Source: Candidatus Micrarchaeota archaeon (GTDB lineage: Archaea > Micrarchaeota > Micrarchaeia > Anstonellales > Bilamarchaeaceae). Taken from it: a DNA stretch of 64,000 bases. Shown here one piece after another: positions 790 through 49,038 of the stretch. The stretch lies in assembly GCA_043827025.1 (NCBI GenBank), contig JBDRPL010000019.1, positions 1-64,000 on the forward strand, in the 5' to 3' direction. The notes under the pieces were generated by a model that saw nothing but the letters and a program-made list of their open reading frames with translations, was not told the DNA's origin and did not search any database. The position numbers were made by a program, and so were the translations under genes. Numbering within the stretch: position 1 is the stretch's first letter; every line of letters starts with the position of its first letter.

Positions 790-1827
790 TCAAACCTTTT
801 CCTGCATCTTCCTCACCTTCTCTAACAGATCGTCGTTCTGTGCCTTGTCTATGCCTTCATACAGTTCCTGTTTCTCTGTGTGTATGTAAACCATTGTGCT
901 CTGCAGGCTGTTGTGCCTTGCGAATTTGCTTGACAGCATTACATTCCCCCCGTTCTTCCTGCAGAAGTTCGTTATCGCGTAGTGCCGCAAACTGTGGGGA
1001 CTGAGCCGGTAAAGGTTCCTTGGGCTGGAGCCTGAGCTGTAGGCATACGTCTCCTGCAGTTTTGCCTTTCTTGCGTAGTCGCGGAACAGGCCGCGGACTG
1101 TTTCACTGCTAAGGTGGTTTTCTGTTCCCTGTTTTCGGTTTCCAGAACTTAGGGAAAAGAACAGGAAGCCTCCTGCCTTTGCTACTTCTGTTTCATAGCT
1201 GTTTATGTACTGGATGGTGGCATCAAACAGCTTCTGAGGCATCAGAAGATAATCAGTCTTTCCGCTTTTCTCTGTCTCTATCCTCAAATCCCTGTTCTTC
1301 AGGTTCAGGTCTTTTATGTTGATCCTTATGGCCTCGCCAATCCTTAACCCAAGAATTGCCTGGAAGCTGAAAAGCAAATGCATCTTATGGTCATCTATAA
1401 CGCTGAAAAACCGCTCCAGCTCTTCATTAGTGAAGCCTTTGTTCATTGATCCATACTTGGGAGTCTTTCTCCTAAGGAAACGGCATTTCCTTGCCTCTGA
1501 CAGCAATGCAATGGCCTTGACCAGGTTCCATTTTGTCAGGTAGCGACCCAGAAACCCAAGTTCAAGCTCTATCTGTTTCCAGTTTCCGGTTAACAGTTTT
1601 GAGATCTGTTTTGCTTTCCTGGAAGGTTGTGCTTTACTACAATCCGGGAACTGACAACCCAGAACGGAAAACCCACAGTTTTCATTCCTGGAAACTGACA
1701 ACCGTAAACCGACAACCTGCCCCTCGGTTCCCTCAGGGCCCAATTTCCCTTGTTCTGTGTTTTGTGTCCAGAGTCTTGGCAGAGTGGAAATTGGGCTGAT
1801 TTGACCGAAGGTCAAACTGAGGCCCAA
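790..1827 (-). CDS. Tyrosine recombinase/integrase (true start probably downstream of 1827)
   Basis: GLRIGE, K (EKSGK), HSLRH, ARH and TMVY give the full R-K-H-R-H-Y catalytic set. Confidence 0.9.
   Translation of the reverse strand: MGLSLTFGQISPISTLPRLWTQNTEQGKLGPEGTEGQVVGLRLSVSRNENCGFSVLGCQFPDCSKAQPSRKAKQISKLLTGNWKQIELELGFLGRYLTKWNLVKAIALLSEARKCRFLRRKTPKYGSMNKGFTNEELERFFSVIDDHKMHLLFSFQAILGLRIGEAIRINIKDLNLKNRDLRIETEKSGKTDYLLMPQKLFDATIQYINSYETEVAKAGGFLFFSLSSGNRKQGTENHLSSETVRGLFRDYARKAKLQETYAYSSGSSPRNLYRLSPHSLRHYAITNFCRKNGGNVMLSSKFARHNSLQSTMVYIHTEKQELYEGIDKAQNDDLLEKVRKMQEKV
1649..1717 (+). repeat. Three 11-bp direct repeats AAC(T/C)GACAACC
   Basis: Copies at 1649-1659, 1693-1703 and 1707-1717. 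Confidence 0.75.
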
Positions 1828-6737: not shown

Positions 6738-9641
6738 ATGAAAGTGAACTTAAGGAAAATTGGAGCAGTTGTTGCAGGAGCGACCATTTTGGCATCTTCT
6801 GTAGCATTTGCAGGATTGGTGTTTCAGAACACCCCATTGGTAAACCAAAACGGTGAACCACTCGTAAAAGTCGTAGTGGGACAAAGCGCAGCAGCATCAG
6901 ATGGTGTTGCAGCAGCAAACATCGCAGCAAAAATTTCAAGCGAGGCATTTAAGTCCTCAGTATTGACTGCGTCTGTTTCGGGTGAACCTACATGTGCAGC
7001 AGGTGGTGCAGGCGCAGGCGAGTGCACAGTTACTGATGAAAAAGTAAAATTGGAATTCACAGTACCAGGTGCATCAGCAGCAGGAACTTATGCAATAAGC
7101 AACCTGATCGGAGATGTGTTTGATAGAACACTTGAAGACAGGGGTTTGGGAGCAACTTCGGACTACAACTTTACGACTGCAGAAACTTCTTCGGAAGCAA
7201 ACCCATTCTCTAATGGTGCATCAACTACATTGGGTGGACAGACAACAGCGAATCTCTATAAGATAGATGGTTCCAAGTACACTCCTTTTGCAGATTATAC
7301 TGTAGAAGATAAGGATGCAGGAAAGACATATAAAGAAGAACAAATGCTTTGGATAAGAGCAGATACAAAATGGCAAACATCAAGTACACAGGTAGAAGGA
7401 AAATTGAAGAACATTATATATCAATTGAAATTCTACGACAGTGCAACAGGTAACTTTGGTTTGCCAGTCTGTTCGCAATCTGACTCAAACAACAGCTGGG
7501 CAACATGTTCAAGCACAGACTCAAACAGATTCTCAACACACAAAGTAAAGGTTAAATTTGGAGGATCTGACTGGGTAGTAACAAAGCTTGAAAACCCATC
7601 AATAAGAGCAGAGAACCTTACTGTATTACATATTGGTGGAGAAGTTGACCTTGCAAAAGAGTCTCTCTCAGGAATCGTAAACGTTGGAGATGTCTTAAAG
7701 GCACAAAGCGGATACTCTGTAAGACTTGACGACATTAAAGCAGGTACAACTGCTGCAGAACAATCTGCTATAGTTAGTATTTTGGACAGCAACGGAAACG
7801 TCTTGAAGCAGACAACAGTTGCTCCAGGTTCAACATCTTCGATAACTATCGGCTCAGACAAAATAATGGTACGTGTCTACAAAACAGCTCCTGGTTATAC
7901 CTACGGTGCAAAATGGGCAGACATGGCAATCATTCAAAACGAACTTTCTTTGAAAGATTCGCTCTACCCAGAAGTCAATGGAGACAACTCTTTGAACAAG
8001 GATGCAAACTGGAGAGTCAGGCTTGGTTGGAAAAAGAAGGAAACAGCTGCTTCAGCAGTAGATCCTTATAACTACTCTGACCACTTGAGAACTATTTTGA
8101 TCTACAAAGATACCTCATCAAATTATTTGTCTGAGGGTGAATATGTAGACATTATGGCAGATCCAGCATCATTGAGATTGACTTACAAAGGACTTGACCT
8201 TGATCCGTCAAGCTCAAGCGACTATGATACCCTTTCCATACAGGTAAGGAGATCAGAGGATTTCAGCTTTAGGACACAAGGAAACTCAACAACTGTTACT
8301 TTGGAAGCAACAACCAACATCTTTGATTCTTGGTTGGACATCTCATCCACAGTGGATGATGCATTTGCATCCAGTTCAGGAAGTGGTGCAAGATTGGCTG
8401 TATTGTTTGGTAACGGAACTGCAACCTATTATACGCATGGAGATACATATCGTTCAGGAATCTTTTCTCCATTCAATAGTACTGTAAATAGTACTGCAGA
8501 AATTGGATTCACACCTGGTAACTCAGCAGCATACGGTGATCCTAATGCCTTAAACTCTGGTGTTATCCTGTTGAAATTACAGGGAAGCGCAGGAGAATGG
8601 GTGCGTGTAGGAGATGCTACAAATGGTACAAAGGATGTCAGATATAAAGTTGCAGGTACTAGAGAAACAGTCAATGAATCTGGTGCACTCAGAATGGGTG
8701 GTTGTAATGCAGGATATTACTCCCAAATAGCTCACGAGGCTGACTTGCCATACTTTGACAAGGTTGGTTTAGCAGGTGCTAACTTCAGTAGCGGAGTAGC
8801 ATCAGGTGTTGCAACAAACAACTCTGTAACCTATTGTGTAGGTGTGAGTGAAGATGCAGGTGACAATTTGGCAGAAAGAAGACCAGATTTCTTTGCATTT
8901 GCTTACAACGTATCCAAGAAGGATCTGAACGTTGACCAGGGCTCTTATGCAAAGGATAAAGTGCTTGCAGGTGGCGTATATGTTGTATCTAACATTGCAA
9001 CAGCATATGAAACATATGATACCACAGTACAGGCATACAAGGTTGGTTTCGTAACAGAAAGAGGTTCTATCTTTGACTCTATCGACTCTGAAAATGCAGT
9101 CGTTAAGGTTGCAAAGAAACCTGCAAGAGCACAATTCCTCTTATCAGGAGTTGACTCAGACGTTACGTCCTCAACTGCAACACAGGTTTGGACTGGAGCA
9201 AAGGGAGATGAAACCACAATTGATGGCACAGGCGGAGTGAAGGTAAAAGTCGCAGACATTACCTACACACCAGGTAGCTGTTCAGTTGGCGGTGGGGCAA
9301 CTCCATCATGCACAGTTGACGAGAGCGGAATGTCGGCAGTTATATTGCCAGCAGGCACACCTACAGTAAATGCAGTGTTGCCTTATGGTTATACAAACTA
9401 CGCACCTCTTGTAGTCTTGGACTCAGAACTTACCTCTGATACAGTAGTAACTGTCGGAGGCCCAGTAGTCAACACAAAAACAAAAGAGTTGATGACTGGT
9501 GCAGCTGTAGTCCTTGATGCTGTTAATCCAACATTGGTTTGGGAAGCAGTACCTGGTAAGTCAATTGTAGTTGCAGGTTGGTCTGCAACAGACACTTTGG
9601 CAGCAACACAGAACTTTATCTCTCAATTGCAGAGCCAGTAA
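6738..9641 (+). CDS. S-layer protein (Methanococcales/Thermococcales-type N- and C-terminal domains)
   Basis: LRKIGAVVAGATILASSVAFA signal; VVVGQSAAASDGVAAANIAA; C-terminal VGGPVVN...IVVAGWSATDT; many N-x-S/T sequons. Confidence 0.9.
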   Translation: MKVNLRKIGAVVAGATILASSVAFAGLVFQNTPLVNQNGEPLVKVVVGQSAAASDGVAAANIAAKISSEAFKSSVLTASVSGEPTCAAGGAGAGECTVTDEKVKLEFTVPGASAAGTYAISNLIGDVFDRTLEDRGLGATSDYNFTTAETSSEANPFSNGASTTLGGQTTANLYKIDGSKYTPFADYTVEDKDAGKTYKEEQMLWIRADTKWQTSSTQVEGKLKNIIYQLKFYDSATGNFGLPVCSQSDSNNSWATCSSTDSNRFSTHKVKVKFGGSDWVVTKLENPSIRAENLTVLHIGGEVDLAKESLSGIVNVGDVLKAQSGYSVRLDDIKAGTTAAEQSAIVSILDSNGNVLKQTTVAPGSTSSITIGSDKIMVRVYKTAPGYTYGAKWADMAIIQNELSLKDSLYPEVNGDNSLNKDANWRVRLGWKKKETAASAVDPYNYSDHLRTILIYKDTSSNYLSEGEYVDIMADPASLRLTYKGLDLDPSSSSDYDTLSIQVRRSEDFSFRTQGNSTTVTLEATTNIFDSWLDISSTVDDAFASSSGSGARLAVLFGNGTATYYTHGDTYRSGIFSPFNSTVNSTAEIGFTPGNSAAYGDPNALNSGVILLKLQGSAGEWVRVGDATNGTKDVRYKVAGTRETVNESGALRMGGCNAGYYSQIAHEADLPYFDKVGLAGANFSSGVASGVATNNSVTYCVGVSEDAGDNLAERRPDFFAFAYNVSKKDLNVDQGSYAKDKVLAGGVYVVSNIATAYETYDTTVQAYKVGFVTERGSIFDSIDSENAVVKVAKKPARAQFLLSGVDSDVTSSTATQVWTGAKGDETTIDGTGGVKVKVADITYTPGSCSVGGGATPSCTVDESGMSAVILPAGTPTVNAVLPYGYTNYAPLVVLDSELTSDTVVTVGGPVVNTKTKELMTGAAVVLDAVNPTLVWEAVPGKSIVVAGWSATDTLAATQNFISQLQSQ

Positions 9642-9649
9642 AGTTCAAT

Positions 9650-9680
9650 CTTTTTTTCTTTTTATTTTCCTTTTTTATCT
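9650..9680 (+). terminator. Oligo-T terminator of the S-layer gene
   Basis: Several T tracts immediately after the stop codon. Confidence 0.6.
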
Positions 9681-9792
9681 AACAAACTATTCTTTTGAAT
9701 CTAAAGTCGTCATAATCTTGCCACTACTCCATAGAAACCTATTTATATCCCTTCTGGAATAATATCTGTTGTTATGGGGAATAGGGGAGTGT

Positions 9793-11118
9793 ATGAGGCT
9801 AAAACGATTCAGATCAGGCAATATGAGTCATGTCTCTTGCCATTCGGCCTTAAAACGGGCTGTTTTTGCCTTATTTCTGCCATTGGTTTCGCTAACAGCC
9901 CCATCATCAGGCGCAGAAGAGGTCGTTAAAATGCCAGTATTATTACAGTCACCAGAATTGCAGAGTTTTCTTGGACCAAGAGGGATAAAGCTTGAAGAAG
10001 TTGCAAAGAGTGCACAGGGTTCTCCAGTAGGTTTGAACGGGAATGGTTCAATGAGCTTTATGATTGATGCTAACGGCCAAACTTATCGTGTCACCTTTCC
10101 AAAAGATACTGTGGAGGATTGGATGAAACTTCCACGGGATAAATTAAAGCCAGTGATAAGGCTTGAGCTTAAAGGGGTTTCGGATAGATTGATCCATAAG
10201 GTAGAAGAGCCAGTTGGAACTGGTGGGCCTACCTTTTTAGAACATCTTGGTGCAGGAATTACACCTGTGCTTAGACCTACTGAAGAAAAGCATGTCGCTC
10301 CAATAAATATTAACCGACGAATTCAAATGATTATTGATCAATTAGAGAAAGCTAGAACTTCGAAGGAAATACGAGAGGCGCTTCCTAGAGATGAGGAGTT
10401 AAAATTAGAAGTATTGTCTAACTTAACTCCTAGTCAAAGAGGTAAACTTCTTGCGATTTTGACTCCTGCTGAACGGAAAGAACTTGAAATCCTTCCCCTG
10501 GCAGTTGAAATAAGGACATTGCCTTCATTAACGCCTTATTTTATGGGATCGGACATAGGATTTATTATTTCTGGTATGGACTGTCTTAATTTCCAGGTTC
10601 CAAGAGATTTAATCATCAAGAAGAAATACAGAGAGATTTTGGGTTTTTTATCTCGGAAGATAGAATCTGCAATAACTGAGGAACAGGCCCAGTTGCCTGA
10701 AGATAAAAGAATGTCTGGAGATCAGACCTCTTCGACTGTGAAATCAATAACAGAGTTGATTGGCATTTCCCAGGTTACTGCTAATGCTGACGATATTCTA
10801 TCAAAAATTAGAACTGCAGATGCAGAAGCATCTAGTCAGGCACTTTCTTCAAGATCCTGGATTTTTAATGGTAATATATACGTAAAAAAGGGTGGTGAAG
10901 AAAAATCATATGCTGTTTCTATAGCTGTTTCCTATGCTGAAATAATAAACAAAACTCCTGCTCAGATATCTGAGATCGTTTCAACTAAAATAGATAATGC
11001 ACTATCTACGAGTATTCCAGATTCTAGAAAAAGAAAAATCGAAGTAAATATATTTATGAGGTCTTCGAATATTAAAGAATATCTGCGTGTTCTGAATTCA
11101 AGTTCAAAAGAAAAGTAA
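9793..11118 (+). CDS. Hypothetical exported or membrane-anchored orphan protein
   Basis: Long ORF with a basic N-terminus followed by a hydrophobic stretch; no family recognised. Confidence 0.6.
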   Translation: MRLKRFRSGNMSHVSCHSALKRAVFALFLPLVSLTAPSSGAEEVVKMPVLLQSPELQSFLGPRGIKLEEVAKSAQGSPVGLNGNGSMSFMIDANGQTYRVTFPKDTVEDWMKLPRDKLKPVIRLELKGVSDRLIHKVEEPVGTGGPTFLEHLGAGITPVLRPTEEKHVAPININRRIQMIIDQLEKARTSKEIREALPRDEELKLEVLSNLTPSQRGKLLAILTPAERKELEILPLAVEIRTLPSLTPYFMGSDIGFIISGMDCLNFQVPRDLIIKKKYREILGFLSRKIESAITEEQAQLPEDKRMSGDQTSSTVKSITELIGISQVTANADDILSKIRTADAEASSQALSSRSWIFNGNIYVKKGGEEKSYAVSIAVSYAEIINKTPAQISEIVSTKIDNALSTSIPDSRKRKIEVNIFMRSSNIKEYLRVLNSSSKEK

Positions 11119-11166
11119 TCGTTCCAAATTCTCTTATTTTATAAAGTTTCACTTCTTATTTAACTC

Positions 11167-11967
11167 ATGAAATGCATACGCTGTGGTATGGAAGCGCATC
11201 AGTATGGCTCTGATGGTTTGCCCTACTGTGATGGCTGTGCATTCTATGGCTTGAATAAGCAGTGCTGGAAATGCAGGATGTATATACCTTCTTCTGAGTT
11301 GCAGCAATATATGGGGCAGTGGATATGCCCAGTATGCCTGAATGATTCTAAGAGCGAAGAGCGCAGGCACGATGAGAGTTCGCGCAAACCGAGAGTAGAG
11401 CAGGAAATCATCAATGAGGAGTGCGCGAGATGCAGGCGAGAGTTGACAGTTGTTTATTATTACAAAGGAGAGAAGCTCTGCGAATTCTGCGCAAGGGTGG
11501 AACGCGATGACAAGGGCAACCTTCCGAATTCAATGTCTGTCTTCAGGATAGGGAACAAGAAGAAAAAGGGCATTTTTGGGAAGATAGTGGATCTGGTGCG
11601 CGGGAAGCCAAGGGAAAGAGACGAACGGAAAGTTTTCATCGAAGCGGTGCGCAATAATGAAAAAAAGAAAAAGTCCATAAATATAGATGAAGAAAAGATA
11701 CGGGCTTTGGATGAAGACGAGCTTCCAGGAGAAAAAAAAGAGCTAGAGAAATCCGAAGAGGCTGAAAAACCAAAGCCTTTTGGGAAAAAAGAAGATGAGG
11801 CGAGATTCAGGCCTCTTATCGACAAGCAGAAGACTAAGAAGGAAATTTTTGCATCCTTCAAGTCCCCTAAAGAGAATTACAAGATTGAGGTGCCGGTCAA
11901 CTCAGGCGCCAAGAGCGCAAGCAAACCAAAGGCCCAGAAGAAGAAACGCACTTCGAAGAAGGATTAA
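11167..11967 (+). CDS. Multi-zinc-finger protein with Lys/Glu-rich C-terminal tail
   Basis: Six CxxC pairs followed by a low-complexity charged tail. Confidence 0.7.
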   Translation: MKCIRCGMEAHQYGSDGLPYCDGCAFYGLNKQCWKCRMYIPSSELQQYMGQWICPVCLNDSKSEERRHDESSRKPRVEQEIINEECARCRRELTVVYYYKGEKLCEFCARVERDDKGNLPNSMSVFRIGNKKKKGIFGKIVDLVRGKPRERDERKVFIEAVRNNEKKKKSINIDEEKIRALDEDELPGEKKELEKSEEAEKPKPFGKKEDEARFRPLIDKQKTKKEIFASFKSPKENYKIEVPVNSGAKSASKPKAQKKKRTSKKD

Positions 11968-15948: not shown

Positions 15949-16061
15949 AGCCCCTGGAGGGATCTTCAGCTTGCTGACGAATTTTGGTCGTCAGACCAAA
16001 GCTATTGAACCCCCGACCTCAGGTTTACAAAACCCGCGCTCTACCACTGAGCCACAGAGGC
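15949..16061 (-). tRNA. tRNA-Thr(TGT) with a 41-nt T-loop intron (59/60; intron 15963-16003)
   Basis: GCCTCTG/CAGGGGC acceptor; CGGGT-TT-TGT-AA-ACCTG; BHB with TTCA/TGAA helix and bulges AT|A and GA|T; spliced T-loop TTCAATT. Confidence 0.92.
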
Positions 16062-16186: not shown

Positions 16187-16345
16187 ATGGGTAAATTCGC
16201 AGAAGCAGACGCAGAAATCATAAAGATTGTAATTTGCAGGAAATGCAAGAGCAGAAACAAGAAAACAGTTAAGAAATGCAGAAAGTGCGGCGCAGGCGCT
16301 ATAGATATGAGGCCAAAGCGAAAAGACATAAGAGCCAAGAAGTAG
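16187..16345 (+). CDS. rpl40e: 50S ribosomal protein L40e (not in ORF track)
   Basis: Manual translation MGKFAEADAEIIKIVICRKCKSRNKKTVKKCRKCG...MRPKRKD; AGGTG upstream. Confidence 0.95.
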   Translation: MGKFAEADAEIIKIVICRKCKSRNKKTVKKCRKCGAGAIDMRPKRKDIRAKK

Positions 16346-16390
16346 TCTCTTTATTTCCTTATTCTTATTTTGTTTTCTTTTTTACAACTA

Positions 16391-16482
16391 TAGCAAACCG
16401 CATAATTTTTGCGGTTCGCTATTAGTAATCTACCTTTAGGGCGATTATAAGTTTGAGTTTGTACTACTTTGGTGGATTGCTA
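16391..16482. repeat. Twin inverted-repeat element (TAGCAA...TCGCTA then TAGTAA...TTGCTA)
   Basis: TAGCAAACCGCA/TGCGGTTCGCTA and TAGTAATCTACC/GGTGGATTGCTA. Confidence 0.6.
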
Positions 16483-16544
16483 TAATTTAAAAATTGATTC
16501 GGGCTTAAATAGTTCTGTCGAATTTGCTGTTGTAAGTTCAACAT

Positions 16545-16638
16545 GCAGGGGTGGCAGAAGCCTTGAACCGTTGTTCAAGAACTGCCAAGTTGCTTCGCAA
16601 CTCAAATCCCTGCTCACTTCGTTCGCAGGGGTGGCAGA
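16545..16638 (+). repeat. 14-bp direct duplication of the tRNA-Leu 5' end with internal inverted copies
   Basis: GCAGGGGTGGCAGA at 16545-16558 and 16625-16638; complements CTGCCA (16582-16587) and TCCCTGC (16607-16613). Confidence 0.85.
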
Positions 16639-16902
16639 GCGGTCAAATGCGGCGGGCTTAGAAAGGCTTTTTTGAACAAGTACAGACATGTGGCAAAAAA
16701 CCCTGGAAACACGAATGAACTTTGTTCATTGTGTCCATTGAAATCGAAAACGATTTCAATCGGGAAGCCACGTGGTATTACTTCCAACAAATGTCTTATG
16801 AAACCCGTTGGCCTAGCGTCTACGCAGGTTCGAAACAGAGCCCCAGCGGGCTCCGTACCTTTTGCAACCAAGAGGTGCAATACGAAAACCCTGCCCCCTG
16901 CA
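16625..16902 (+). tRNA. tRNA-Leu(TAG) with two introns: 140 nt at 37/38 (16663-16802) and 54 nt at 59/60 (16835-16888)
   Basis: GCAGGGG/CCCCTGC-A acceptor; GCGGG-CT-TAG-A|A-CCCGT; long variable arm; T-loop TTCG/CGAA helix with cut sites AA|A and AA|C. Confidence 0.88.
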
Positions 16903-16971
16903 TTTTTTATTTGTAAAAAATGTTGACTCCTGAACGTCGGTTCAGGCCTGCTGCAATTTTATTGCCATAAC

Positions 16972-19910: not shown

Positions 19911-20750
19911 ATGGGAAATGAACCTAGTGTTGTCGAGTCAATCAAAAAAGCATTCGGATTATTCAGCAATGGGAAGTTGCTTACTAACTTTTCGAAAATA
20001 TCTTTGCTGGAGGCGGGGGTGCAGGCCGTATTGGTGGTTTTGGTTTTTGCCAGCCTTTTGTCAGCACTTCTTTCTGTTAGTAAGGTTGATCCGAGCAATT
20101 CGGAGTTAGTACTGTCCACCCTTGTGGCTAGCCTCCTTTCAGCAGGCATCTTTATACTATTCCTGGGTTTAATTGCAATTCTTGCTTTAACAATTATCAA
20201 CTCTATCTTTTGGTATGCGATTCATGCACATTCAAATAATAAGCATTTCAATCTGTGGAATTCGCTGAAGGAAGCGGCAGTGCCAATGACGAAACTTTTC
20301 CTAGTTTATCTATTGGGCGGTGTTTTGGCAGTTGGAGTGTTGGTAGTGTCTGCAATCACATGCGTGCTTCTTCCAATCGCCGTGATAGGGCTTTTGATCC
20401 TTGTATTTTCGATAGTCTTCATGGTTCCTGAAATTTTGATAAACAAAAAAGGAATCGTTGATTCTTTCAAGACCTCCTGGAGAATACTGAGGACATATCC
20501 TCTGAAAGTCATTGCATTGGTTCTTGCATCAGGGCTGATTGCAGCTGTGCCTAATTACATTTTGTCAACAGTTTCTGATTTGCTTATGGATAACCTAGGT
20601 ACTAATCTGGCATTGATCTTCGCAGTCACGTTGGTAATTGGATTCCTTCAGATTCTGATCGATTCAATTATCCTAGTTGGTTCAGTATACTACTTTTGGA
20701 TGGATGTTCCAAAGGCAGTTCAAAAGAAGCCTTCGACTAATCGCAAATAA
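19911..20750 (+). CDS. Polytopic membrane protein, unknown function
   Basis: About six hydrophobic segments; KGIVDSFKTSW motif. Confidence 0.7.
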   Translation: MGNEPSVVESIKKAFGLFSNGKLLTNFSKISLLEAGVQAVLVVLVFASLLSALLSVSKVDPSNSELVLSTLVASLLSAGIFILFLGLIAILALTIINSIFWYAIHAHSNNKHFNLWNSLKEAAVPMTKLFLVYLLGGVLAVGVLVVSAITCVLLPIAVIGLLILVFSIVFMVPEILINKKGIVDSFKTSWRILRTYPLKVIALVLASGLIAAVPNYILSTVSDLLMDNLGTNLALIFAVTLVIGFLQILIDSIILVGSVYYFWMDVPKAVQKKPSTNRK

Positions 20751-39071: not shown

Positions 39072-39204
39072 AAAAACATCCTCCATTAGTTCGAACTGCA
39101 CTTCGTTTCATTCAAGGATGTCGTTTTTTGTAAAATAAAAAAATCGCCATGGCAAGAACGCATTCGTTCTTGACTGTCGAAATTTTTTTTAAGAAAAAAA
39201 ATTT

Positions 39205-39330
39205 CGCCAAGGACCGGATTTGAACCAGTAATTCCTTGCGGAACTAGATTTCAAGTCTAGCGCACTACCGGGTTGCATGCTCTGCGTGCAATTTTGAACG
39301 CGCACGTTCAAAGCTTTATGCGACCTTGGC
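39205..39330 (-). tRNA. tRNA-Ser(TGA) with a 43-nt D-loop intron (15/16; intron 39273-39315)
   Basis: GCCAAGG/CCTTGGC-G; CTAGA-CT-TGA-AA-TCTAG; long variable arm; GCAT/ATGC helix with cut sites AA|A and AA|C. Confidence 0.92.
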
Positions 39331-39471
39331 GAATGAATATGAGCCATGGTTATTTACCGAGAAGGTAAATTCACCCTTGGCAACGAACGTGAGTGAGTCT
39401 CAAAATTACTATTGTTCTGGCAAACGTTTTTATTGTTTCCTTCTGAGAATATGTTTATGAATTCTGTAAAT

Positions 39472-48827: not shown

Positions 48828-49038
48828 CGCCCCCGTCGGGGATTTCGCTTCGTTTTTTGGTGCCGGTTTTTAGGCATCCCGAAAAAGCGGCTTCGAACCC
48901 GAGTCGGAAGAGGACTGTAAACCTTGGAAAGAGTTGTTTGATGAAACGTTTTCCAAAAAGTTTCTGACAGTCTCCTATGCTAACCACTGTGTGCTTTGAG
49001 TATCTCTAAAAGTACTCAAAACTCTACACTACAGGGGC
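48828..49038 (-). tRNA. tRNA-Asp(GTC) with three introns: 37 nt at 15/16 (48987-49023), 52 nt at 37/38 (48913-48964), 50 nt at 59/60 (48842-48891)
   Basis: GCCCCTG/CGGGGGC-G; GGAGA-CT-GTC-A|C-TCTTC; central helices GTGT/ACAC, CTGT/ACAG and TTCG/CGAA. Confidence 0.92.

What the first reader, a model, noticed from the sequence alone, without database searches (positions are those of the whole stretch)
16517..16960. tRNA-Leu is framed by duplicated and inverted copies of its own acceptor strands, an architecture shared with tRNA-Ser
Seen, 5' side: hairpin (16517-16542); exact 14-nt copy of the tRNA 5' end (16545-16558); hairpin CTTGAAC/GTTCAAG; CTGCCA; hairpin AGTTGC/GCAACT; anti-copy TCCCTGC; loop TC-AC-TTC-GT-TC; then the real tRNA. 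Seen, 3' side: A/T hairpin CATTTTTTA/TAAAAAATG; hairpin CCTGAAC/GTTCAGG; degenerate copy of the 3' acceptor strand plus discriminator (CTGCTGC-A, 16948-16955); T tract. The same module order, written in Ser-specific sequence, surrounds tRNA-Ser 22 kb away. Both are long-variable-arm tRNAs, and Thr and Asp lack the frame. The first 5' copy also carries a BHB-like insert at 15/16 (GCAG/CTGC helix, AA|G and CA|A). Inference: either miniature tRNA-targeting insertions that regenerate the tRNA ends (possible footprints of intron birth), or a conformational switch in which the leader sequesters the tRNA 5' strand and controls maturation. I do not recognise this as a described feature.
Basis: partly seen in the sequence, partly recalled or inferred. 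Interest (0 to 1): 0.85.

Follow-up and report, generated by a model that had tools for sequence, protein, structure and literature searches.

The report
Hairpin cassettes duplicating tRNA gene ends
The leucine tRNA gene of this tiny archaeon is flanked on both sides by small gene-less hairpin cassettes that repeat its ends once directly and once inverted; they look like DNA insertions that many tRNA genes of this lineage carry, rather than an RNA switch, and the enzyme that makes them is unknown.

Summary
It is not special to long-arm tRNAs: 17 of 39 tRNA genes of this Micrarchaeota-like genome are framed, 10 of them class I. The unit is copy–hairpin–inverted copy–cap; copy and inverted copy follow their own gene (33 of 34 Leu leaders). 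Units are patchy, stack as unlike arrays, have almost purely Watson-Crick stems (213 of 215 pairs), and their loops form DNA-type C(GNA)G mini-hairpins on the untranscribed strand (22:0); short 3' units such as this one read as reverse complements of 5' units. Best reading: gene-less DNA cassettes inserted 7–14 bases from a tRNA end, tolerated because the nascent RNA pairs copy with inverted copy. The BHB-like insert is sealed and probably not spliced. The intron link is only partial. No enzyme is identified and no RNA data cover it. This scan reported such cassettes before on other DPANN, CPR and bacterial DNA; my ten literature searches found no archaeal description. Nearest known: E. coli tRNA-linked repeats, integrase att scars.

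The parts
16516..16543 (+). Imperfect hairpin just upstream of the first copy (same kind precedes tRNA-Leu(CAA) on contig C10, which has no 5' cassette)
16545..16558 (+). Direct copy of tRNA-Leu positions 1-14 (orphan 5' end)
16559..16581 (+). Hairpin module: 3-4-nt bulge, 7-bp stem CTTGAAC/GTTCAAG, 2-nt bulge
16582..16587 (+). Inverted copy of positions 8-13 (seals the would-be second BHB bulge)
16588..16606 (+). Second hairpin (6 bp, TTC loop; reads GCGAAGC-type mini-hairpin on the minus strand) plus 4-nt linker
16607..16613 (+). Inverted copy of positions 1-7
16614..16624 (+). Cap motif TC-AC-TTC-GT-TC closed by the GC of the inverted copy and G1-C2 of the tRNA (tandem G-A pairs and GAA loop on the minus strand)
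16625..16902 (+). tRNA-Leu(UAG) gene; exons 16625-16662, 16803-16834, 16889-16902 (84 nt mature)
16663..16802 (+). 140-nt intron at 37/38 (relaxed BHB, one mismatch in the central helix), built of hairpin modules shared with other tRNA introns of the genome
16835..16888 (+). 54-nt intron at 59/60 (TTCG/CGAA helix), nearly the same as those of tRNA-Leu(CAA) and tRNA-Gln(UUG)
16903..16919 (+). T-tract/A-tract linker hairpin of the 3' cassette
16920..16924 (+). Degenerate inverted copy of positions 69-74
16925..16950 (+). Hairpin module of the 3' cassette (CCTGAAC/GTTCAGG with 2-3-nt and 4-nt bulges in mirrored order)
16948..16955 (+). Degenerate direct copy of the tRNA 3' end with discriminator
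39331..39381 (-). 5' cassette of tRNA-Ser(UGA): copy 39381-39375, hairpin, inverted copy 39349-39343, cap 39342-39331
39205..39330 (-). tRNA-Ser(UGA) gene with a true 43-nt intron at 15/16 (39315-39273)
39145..39204 (-). 3' cassette of tRNA-Ser(UGA): A/T hairpin, degenerate inverted copy, CAAGAAC/GTTCTTG hairpin, copy 39152-39145

Best explanation
The frames are small gene-less DNA cassettes that insert a few bases inside a tRNA gene end and duplicate the terminal segment, so that one intact tRNA gene remains. A cassette has the order copy - hairpin module(s) - inverted copy - cap; closed on itself this is a dumbbell, and the 3' form is the same dumbbell either permuted (long type, copy of 60-73) or on the other strand (short type, as here). 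SHOWN: the architecture, its gene-specific sequence, its patchy spread, unlike tandem units, boundaries at the mature ends, Watson-Crick stems, loop polarity. INFERRED: the strand that folds is single-stranded DNA; the folded copy/inverted-copy stem acts as the attachment site, as attP(+) of CTXphi does, leaving one working site and two dead ones; the likeliest catalyst is one of the tRNA-targeting tyrosine integrases of this lineage acting in trans (about 0.3), IS200-type TnpA or host repair being the alternatives; template switching and gene conversion may keep the three copies alike afterwards. INFERRED for the RNA: the leader is transcribed, copy pairs with inverted copy as it is made, the true acceptor stem forms, and RNase P or HARP and RNase Z trim the cassettes away; the cassettes are tolerated passengers.
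For: Gene-specific and far above chance: score >=13 in 18 (5') and 18 (3') of 148 genes of six genomes against 0.5% and 0.7% with swapped ends (at least one 5' hit is only a neighbouring tRNA). Dispensable: the single-contig genome G015 has only four borderline scores (11-11.5) in 26 genes, G031 has 12 3' units in 25; Leu(UAG) of G002 and G005 lack the leader that G000, G017, G024, G031 carry. Unlike units stack at one gene: G000 Ser(GGA), G018 Leu, L057, three different units behind a Ser gene in L301. Boundaries: no match upstream of G1 in 35 of 59 automatic 5' calls, long matches (17-30 nt) in 5, read as whole-unit tandem repeats; 14 of 36 3' copies start at 59-60 (null 8 of 1992), and an integrase of this genome overlaps a 15-nt fragment 59-73 of tRNA-Val(CAC). 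Inverted copy alone is at chance level, copy plus inverted copy 17 of 236 vs 0.08%. DNA signature: 213 of 215 module pairs are Watson-Crick in 15 window-type leaders though up to 5 pair types occur per position; C-closed loops T..C versus G..A are 22:0 in 5' units, 16:2 in long 3' units, 0:3 in short 3' units, 6:6 and 9:5 in unit-less flanks; loops are T-rich in 5' units (T 0.48, A 0.10) and A-rich in short 3' units (A 0.45, T 0.11); GCGNAGC mini-hairpins are far more stable as DNA than as RNA (PMC13037366, passages). A recurrent mismatch at 3:70 (11 of 25 inverted copies) is a shared design feature, not random decay. Two units lie wholly reversed at a 3' end (L313, L314). Nascent fold copy:inverted copy P 0.88-0.93. 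RNase P RNA (58 bits, under the 84-bit cut-off, E 6e-16), HARP and an ARMAN-2-like EndA are present.
Against: No enzyme tracks the units: TnpA not found in G031, which has most 3' units; integrases found in G015, which has almost none, and not in G001 (74% complete); RT in 1 of 5, Cas1 in 0 of 5. No empty-versus-filled allele pair was seen in one population. To move between tRNA types a cassette must change both copy and inverted copy; how is unexplained. The same three-way-junction leader sits on all five Leu isoacceptors across families with fully compensated stems, which also fits selection on an RNA. The bare GCGN(N)AGC word shows little polarity when counted outside hairpins (21 vs 13 upstream, 20 vs 16 downstream, 15 vs 16 inside), ViennaRNA gives equal energies to both strands, the short-3' count is only 3 loops, and related genomes are not independent. 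In the 2D model the full precursor prefers inverted copy:true 5' strand (P 0.93), so tolerance rests on folding order and tRNA tertiary structure, which were not modelled.
Confidence: 0.6

Rival explanations
1. By-product of replication: template switching makes copy-inverted copy-copy triplets at tRNA ends and keeps repairing them; no mobile element is involved.
For: Template switching makes and repairs perfect stems (PMC8794818, abstract); nearly pure Watson-Crick stems; inverted copies run through positions 8-13 or 61-65, as a local reverse complement would; some units are plain tandem repeats with their upstream DNA (5 of 59).
Against: Hairpin modules and cap are not derived from the local sequence and recur at unrelated genes (40 of 40 bases; cap at 6 of its 9 strict sites in G000 exactly at a tRNA 5' junction); a fixed loop polarity relative to the tRNA and a mismatch hot spot at 3:70 are not expected from local copying.
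Confidence: 0.13
2. Functional RNA leader/trailer: a strand-swap switch or folding aid in which the inverted copy and cap cover the RNase P site and control maturation.
For: The cap's TC/TC loop sits at -2/-1, right at the RNase P site, and covaries; copy and inverted copy track the gene at positions 7 and 12 (33 of 34) and in variants at positions 3-4; both folds are within 2 kcal/mol (-92.3 vs -93.9); the window-type leader is conserved in structure across families.
Against: Most genes and whole genomes lack it; the nascent RNA pairs copy with inverted copy; G-U pairs are not favoured over A-C on the transcribed strand (6 vs 4); stable loops lie on the untranscribed strand; the short 3' unit starts with the T-tract that may end transcription; units decay (Phe in G000 and G001).
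Confidence: 0.12
3. Displaced or failed introns: intron modules that landed at the D-loop or T-loop hot spots in an unspliceable form and survived because the short terminal exon was duplicated or restored from mature tRNA.
For: Copies end near 13-15 and start at 59-60, the sites of real introns here; same bulge-hairpin geometry as 15/16 introns; Arg(CCU) leader module identical to the start of the Gly(CCC) intron; introns share the loop polarity (15:1); an IS200 left-end module opens the Val(CAC) intron.
Against: No overall enrichment of BLAST hits to introns; cap and inverted copy of 1-7 have no counterpart in introns; many copies stop at 7-11; RT found in only 1 of 5 genomes.
Confidence: 0.09
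4. Each unit is processed into a tRNA-like small RNA (minihelix mimic) with its own role.
For: Units carry an acceptor-like stem and discriminator; some G031 trailers are complete minihelices with T-loop; E. coli TLRs behind rRNA operons are processed into small RNAs (PMC8144298, passages).
Against: Mismatch at 3:70 and decay; patchiness; polarity favours DNA.
Confidence: 0.04
5. Nested acceptor- or D-arm introns removed by two rounds of EndA, the mature 5' end coming from the first copy.
For: The genome's EndA is the relaxed epsilon2 type (PMC3239211, passages); copy-inverted copy-copy is the order that an intron inside a 3' splice site would give.
Against: The inner copy is always the perfect tRNA end while the outer one can be defective (G024 Leu starts ACAGGGG, G000 Phe GCCACGA); the second bulge is paired in 32 of 34; bases 14-15 of the outer copy are usually TC or TT, not the invariant A14.
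Confidence: 0.02

Closest known systems
E. coli tRNA-linked repeats (TLRs; 22 copies at ten loci; PMC8144298, passages seen)
   Same: Short gene-less units in tandem behind tRNA genes, each ending in a copy of the neighbouring gene's 3' end; function unknown.
   Different: TLRs repeat 18-19 bp of the 3' end only; the passages seen mention no inverted copy, cap or 5' form. Here copies are 5-22 nt, occur at both ends and on both strands, in Archaea.
Tyrosine-integrase islands in tRNA genes (Islander, PMC4383910, passages seen); Caldiarchaeum tRNA-Thr fragment element (PMC3293823, first fifth of the text seen)
   Same: Restored tRNA plus displaced end fragment on the correct side; 3' fragments from the T/acceptor junction; 5' fragments exist (159 of 3919 islands); tandem arrays.
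   Different: Islands are 2-200 kb and carry an integrase; these units are 40-130 bp, carry no gene, and contain an inverted copy of the target.
CTXphi attP(+) and integron attC: folded single-strand attachment sites (PMC3089051, passages seen)
   Same: Two inverted target-like sites fold into a hairpin; integration leaves one working site and two dead ones, the topology seen here.
   Different: Targets are dif or attI, enzymes XerC/D or IntI; here the target is a tRNA end, the cargo is only hairpins, and no enzyme is known.
BHB introns of ARMAN/Micrarchaeota tRNAs cut by epsilon2 EndA (PMC3239211, passages seen)
   Same: Same lineage and enzyme type, same hot spots (15/16, 59/60), similar bulge-hairpin geometry, some shared modules.
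   Different: Units lie outside the mature tRNA, duplicate its end, and lack the second bulge.
IS200/IS605 ends and REP-like hairpins (mechanism recalled, not from a call)
   Same: Strand-specific imperfect DNA hairpins; IS200 end modules occur in introns, trailers and one 3' unit here.
   Different: TnpA insertion makes no target duplication (recalled); TnpA was not found in G031.

Membership tests
BHB tRNA intron (the 15/16-like insert in the leader) | 4-bp helix followed on each strand by an unpaired 3-nt bulge | tested here: not met
   second bulge starts CA and pairs with T8-G9 in 32 of 34 leaders; true Leu 15/16 introns have AA in 5 of 5
BHB tRNA intron (the 15/16-like insert in the leader) | removal restores a contiguous cloverleaf | tested here: not met
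   after the insert come a hairpin and the inverted copy, not position 16
BHB tRNA intron (the 15/16-like insert in the leader) | cleavage by EndA | not testable with these tools
   epsilon2-like EndA present; no assay
Tyrosine-integrase island in a tRNA gene | intact tRNA plus displaced end fragment, same orientation, correct side | tested here: met
Tyrosine-integrase island in a tRNA gene | integrase gene within the element, length over 2 kb | tested here: not met
   80-nt and about 50-nt non-coding units
Tyrosine-integrase island in a tRNA gene | fragment boundary at a known crossover subsite (anticodon loop, T loop, T/acceptor junction) | tested here: inconclusive
   long 3' copies start at 53-62 like the 59-73 att fragment in the window; 5' copies and short 3' copies do not fit a listed subsite
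E. coli tRNA-linked repeat (TLR) | unit ends in 18-19 bp identical to the 3' end of the upstream tRNA or rRNA | tested here: not met
   window copy is 8 nt and degenerate; 5 of 36 3' copies in relatives reach 19-22 nt
E. coli tRNA-linked repeat (TLR) | sequence homology to TLR families | tested here: not met
   Rfam scan of the window at gathering scores gave only one tRNA hit; no direct alignment to TLR sequences was made
Folded single-strand att site (CTXphi attP(+), attC) | inverted target-like pair; one working and two dead sites after integration | tested here: met
Folded single-strand att site (CTXphi attP(+), attC) | recombinase binding boxes and strand-specific recombination | not testable with these tools
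   loop polarity only
Casposon | Cas1-solo integrase and terminal inverted repeats | tested here: not met
   PF01867 in 0 of 5 genomes searched
IS200/IS605 non-autonomous element | ends homologous to a TnpA-bearing element; no target duplication | tested here: not met
   no BLAST hit of the 21 G000 unit interiors to the three IS200 elements; target end is duplicated
Permuted or split tRNA | mature tRNA needs the separated halves | tested here: not met
   a complete, correctly ordered gene follows the leader

The most novel reading that the evidence does not exclude
A previously undescribed class of minimal mobile DNA: gene-less single-stranded dumbbells of 40-130 bases whose stem is re-templated to match each new tRNA, so that the element is its own attachment site, docks at either end of the gene in either strand, and builds unlike arrays. 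The same pool of DNA mini-hairpin modules, when it lands at a site that gives two bulges, becomes a BHB intron, which would supply the missing arrival route of archaeal tRNA introns.
Probability: 0.3. Interest if true: 0.85.

Novelty: new variant of a known kind. Interest (0 to 1): 0.6.

Why it matters
How introns arrive in archaeal tRNA genes is stated to be open (10.64898/2026.10.13.758758, abstract and passages seen), and the tRNA-linked repeats of E. coli have had no known function since 1978 (PMC8144298). This lineage holds introns, IS200 end modules and end-duplicating cassettes in the same small genomes, with candidate enzymes (integrases, TnpA, EndA) at hand, so both questions can be tested with short oligonucleotides. 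The window's gene carries cassettes of opposite polarity at its two ends, which points to a DNA process that treats the two halves of the acceptor stem as equivalent targets. In practice, these frames and the introns hide most tRNA genes from standard finders (7 found by ARAGORN without introns; 39 curated).

Tried and rejected
Standard tRNA finders on the window: ARAGORN 0, Rfam 1 hit. Misassembly: no sign. Expression: no RNA holder listed; the one RNA run laid gave a single short piece from another tRNA-Leu, which says nothing. Long-arm restriction: rejected. Recursive splicing: rejected on sequence grounds. Casposon (14-bp duplications recalled; papers seen as search listing only): no Cas1 in 5 genomes. 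TnpA, RT, tyrosine integrase as markers of unit-rich genomes: none tracks. General module sharing with introns: not above control flanks. Cap as a genome-wide REP: in G000 6 of 9 strict sites are at tRNA junctions; in the order, 17 of 31 inspected sites (of 42 matches) are at tRNA ends or in unit arrays by eye, the other 14 elsewhere or unclear. Viral contigs: one 24-nt cap-plus-Leu pattern, 0 hits. Bacterial-type promoter scan uninformative. MAFFT alignment of 15 leaders was not structure-true in the variable hairpins, so pairs were counted per sequence instead. Strand energies with ViennaRNA did not discriminate. PMC12558985 (passages) was not relevant. Literature searches that found no archaeal description of this architecture; the library lacks most subscription papers, and no supplementary files were read, so tRNA flank tables in supplements could bear on the novelty claim.

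Full report
1. What is there. The window is contig C19 of a 1.33-Mb genome, 92% complete. Its tRNA splicing endonuclease matches PDB 4FZ2 over 389 residues at E 1e-131 (that this entry is the ARMAN-2 epsilon2 enzyme is recalled), and a strict pattern for the duplicated Leu 5' end finds 32 stretches among 185,579 genomes: 22 titled Micrarchaeota, 4 Iainarchaeum, 3 unnamed archaea and 3 bacterial GC-rich repeats with no tRNA. The organism is therefore Micrarchaeota-like. The gene is tRNA-Leu(UAG), 16625-16902, with a 140-nt intron at 37/38 and a 54-nt intron at 59/60; the joined exons give 84 nt. Contigs of one run that may be the source and of two runs from other studies match parts of the locus without a difference, and none skips the unit.

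2. It is a genome-wide and lineage-wide feature. I curated 39 tRNA genes in G000; the set is incomplete (one more gene turned up on C18 and was not added). By hand, 12 have a 5' unit and 9 a 3' unit, 17 in all, 4 both; 7 of 9 Leu/Ser genes and 10 of 30 class I genes (Val, Ala twice, Arg, Cys, Met, Phe, Lys twice, Thr). An automatic score on 148 genes of six genomes gave 18 5' and 18 3' units at a threshold passed by 0.5% and 0.7% of swapped-end controls (one mis-anchored G018 row was dropped before the count, and at least one 5' hit is a neighbouring tRNA). The load differs: G015 (one contig) only four borderline scores in 26 genes, G031 12 3' units in 25, G018 5 and 5 in 30. Genes of relatives were those Rfam or my stem finder could place (30 of 38, 30 of 40, 12 of 12, 30 of 37, 15 of 15 Rfam loci fetched), which favours genes with few introns. 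In 90 Leu genes picked only by their first 15 bases (of 764 matches in 401 genomes), about 20 show a 5' unit and about 10 a 3' unit by eye.

3. Grammar. 5' unit: copy of 1-7 to 1-14, a 3-4-nt bulge, a hairpin, 2-3 nt, the inverted copy, a cap, the true G1. The long type (window) splits the inverted copy with a second hairpin; 15 such leaders sit on all five Leu isoacceptors. The duplication starts at G1: no upstream match in 35 of 59 automatic calls, 17-30 nt in 5 (this list contains some false positives and 15 loci chosen by the strict pattern). Long 3' unit: true end, cap or spacer, inverted copy, one or two hairpins, copy of about 60-73. Short 3' unit (window): T/A hairpin, inverted copy, 2-3 nt, hairpin, 4 nt, copy of about 68-73. 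The inverted copy is a reverse complement of the adjacent end, not a tRNA strand: it runs through 8-13 or 61-65. In 34 long Leu leaders the copy equals its own gene at position 7 in 33 and at position 12 in 33, and the inverted copy is complementary at 12 in 32; variants with A4, C4 or G3 are followed too. In 236 genes not chosen for the feature, copy plus inverted copy occur in 17 (control 0.08%), copy alone in 24 (1.8%), inverted copy alone in 7 (2.1%), and the cap in 18, 15 of them with a copy (control 0.4%). The cap TC-NN-loop-NN-TC covaries (AC/GT, GT/AC, AT/AT, GC/GC); 6 of its 9 strict sites in G000 are at a tRNA 5' junction. The inverted copy mismatches at position 3 in 11 of 25 cases and at most 3 times at positions 4-7; positions 1-2 were fixed by the selection. 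Since the cap closes the stem at one end and the module at the other, a unit is a dumbbell, and the 3' long form is its circular permutation.

4. DNA or RNA? Module stems of the window-type family are Watson-Crick in 213 of 215 pairs while showing up to five pair types per position (the finder trims non-canonical ends, so this counts inner pairs). G-U is not preferred to A-C on the transcribed strand (6 vs 4). Loops closed by C-G read T..C rather than G..A in 22:0 (5' units), 16:2 (long 3'), 15:1 (introns), 0:3 (short 3'), against 6:6 and 9:5 in flanks without units. On the other strand these are C(GNA)G loops; GCGAAGC melts at 76.5 C as DNA, and the RNA form of the related GCGAAAGC at 39 C (PMC13037366, passages). 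The window's second hairpin reads GCGAAGC on the minus strand, and the cap reads tandem G-A pairs with a GAA loop. Short 3' units mirror 5' units in loop make-up (A 0.45/T 0.11 vs T 0.48/A 0.10) and in bulge order, and 14 bases of the window's leader are the reverse complement of the Ser(GGA) trailer (E 0.13-0.22, weak alone). Two relatives carry a whole 5'-type unit reversed at a 3' end. Against this: the bare mini-hairpin word shows little polarity, folding energies do not separate the strands, and kin are not independent.

5. What happens to the RNA (inferred). An AT-rich TATA-like stretch lies near 16485-16494 (read by eye), so the leader is probably transcribed. While only 8-30 bases of the tRNA are made, copy pairs with inverted copy at P 0.88-0.93; in the full precursor the 2D model shifts to inverted copy:true strand (P 0.93), the constrained folds being -92.3 and -93.9 kcal/mol. 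RNase P RNA (below the family cut-off), HARP and EndA are encoded. The BHB-like insert has only its first bulge: CA follows the helix in 32 of 34 leaders and pairs with T8-G9, whereas true Leu 15/16 introns have AA in 5 of 5 (several other rows of that parse are misaligned and were not used). The epsilon2 enzyme cuts relaxed motifs (PMC3239211, passages), so a nick is possible, but it would not build a tRNA.

6. Origin. Unlike units stack at one gene, which points to repeated acquisition. The Arg(CCU) leader module is identical over 40 bases to the start of the Gly(CCC) intron, and two Ala leaders share 42 bases; an IS200 left-end module opens the Val(CAC) intron and follows several tRNA 3' ends (lead from e1-5091125). 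Yet unit interiors hit introns no more often than control flanks do, and the window's own modules have no significant intron match. TnpA was found in 13 of 41 genomes but not in G031, RT in 1 of 5, Cas1 in 0 of 5, tyrosine integrases in 22 of 41 including unit-poor G015. An integrase in the window (790-1827, minus) overlaps a 15-nt fragment 59-73 of tRNA-Val(CAC) at 1728-1742, the same segment as the long 3' copies. CTXphi shows that a folded single strand with two inverted target-like sites integrates and leaves one working and two dead sites (PMC3089051, passages). I therefore rank a folded single-stranded cassette integrated in trans first (0.6 for the cassette, about 0.3 for a tyrosine integrase as catalyst), template switching alone 0.13, RNA switch 0.12, displaced introns 0.09, small RNA 0.04, nested introns 0.02. 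How copy and inverted copy are re-matched to a new tRNA is unexplained.

7. Comparison and novelty. Restored tRNA plus displaced fragment is the signature of integrase islands, 159 of 3919 with a 5' fragment (PMC4383910, passages; see also PMC3293823, first fifth), but those are kilobases long and carry an integrase. E. coli TLRs repeat 18-19 bp of the 3' end and have no known function (PMC8144298, passages). Neither, in what I saw, has the inverted copy, cap, 5' form or strand polarity. Ten literature searches returned no archaeal description; supplements were not read. The scan's own notes report the same kind of cassette many times on other DNA; these are unchecked leads, and gave me the TLR, template-switch, integrase-scar and CTXphi papers. 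The arrival route of archaeal tRNA introns is called open in a 2026 preprint (abstract and passages). Verdict: real, recurrent, a new variant of tRNA-end-duplicating insertions; interest 0.6.

Noticed in passing
window 790-1827 (minus) and 1728-1742 (plus): Tyrosine integrase (PF00589) overlapping a 15-nt copy of positions 59-73 of tRNA-Val(CAC), whose gene lies on contig C25; both places are flanked by similar CAGTTTCC/GAAACTG repeats. Probably one end of an integrated element.
   Followed up: partly
G000 C9 about 19995-20720 and C25 57013-57212: The left end of an IS200-type element is nearly the same as the first 35 bases of the tRNA-Val(CAC) intron; the same module follows a tRNA 3' end in G031 (L121).
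   Followed up: partly
G000 C6 about 9120-11910 (L052, L087): The EndA gene, an IS200-type tnpA and the framed tRNA-Arg(CCU) lie side by side; the IS left-end hairpin also stands alone behind several tRNA genes of G018 and, reversed, in the Ser(GGA) intron of G000 and the Ser 3' unit of G001.
   Followed up: partly
window 39315-39273 (minus); G000 C9 37349 and C25 23757 (minus): D-loop introns of Ser(UGA), Trp and Arg(UCU) contain an internal direct copy of the 4-nt exon helix before its complement, so introns too carry copy plus inverted copy of their site.
   Followed up: no
window 15949-16061 (minus) and 48828-49038 (minus): tRNA-Thr(UGU) has a 59/60 intron; tRNA-Asp has three introns (15/16, 37/38, 59/60). 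33 of 39 curated genes are longer than 90 nt.
   Followed up: partly
window 16187-16345 (plus): 52-aa basic, cysteine-rich ORF that looks like ribosomal protein L40e (recalled; Pfam gave no hit), conserved in relatives.
   Followed up: partly
window 16385-16430 and 39085-39130: Intergenic palindromes of the same style as the modules; TGAAC-n3-7-GTTCA hairpins occur 33 times in G000 against 3-11 in shuffles.
   Followed up: partly
G018 C12 109327 (L217): The leader of a GCCAAGG tRNA carries an inverted copy (CCTCAGC) that fits the Ser acceptor better than its own, a hint that a cassette moved between genes.
   Followed up: no
L125 (G031 C4 7424): 118-bp tandem duplication of promoter-like DNA, leader and the first 24 or so bases of a tRNA, followed by a hairpin module: a longer variant of the 5' unit.
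   Followed up: no
G000 C15 6974-7234, C10 33829-34371, C11 17610-18050: A divergent RNase P RNA and HARP coexist; a reverse-transcriptase-like ORF of 228 aa is present.
   Followed up: no
G000 C4 1-217 and C31 about 3985: The tRNA-Tyr 3' region occurs on two contigs with at least 40 identical bases, probably a contig overlap.
   Followed up: no
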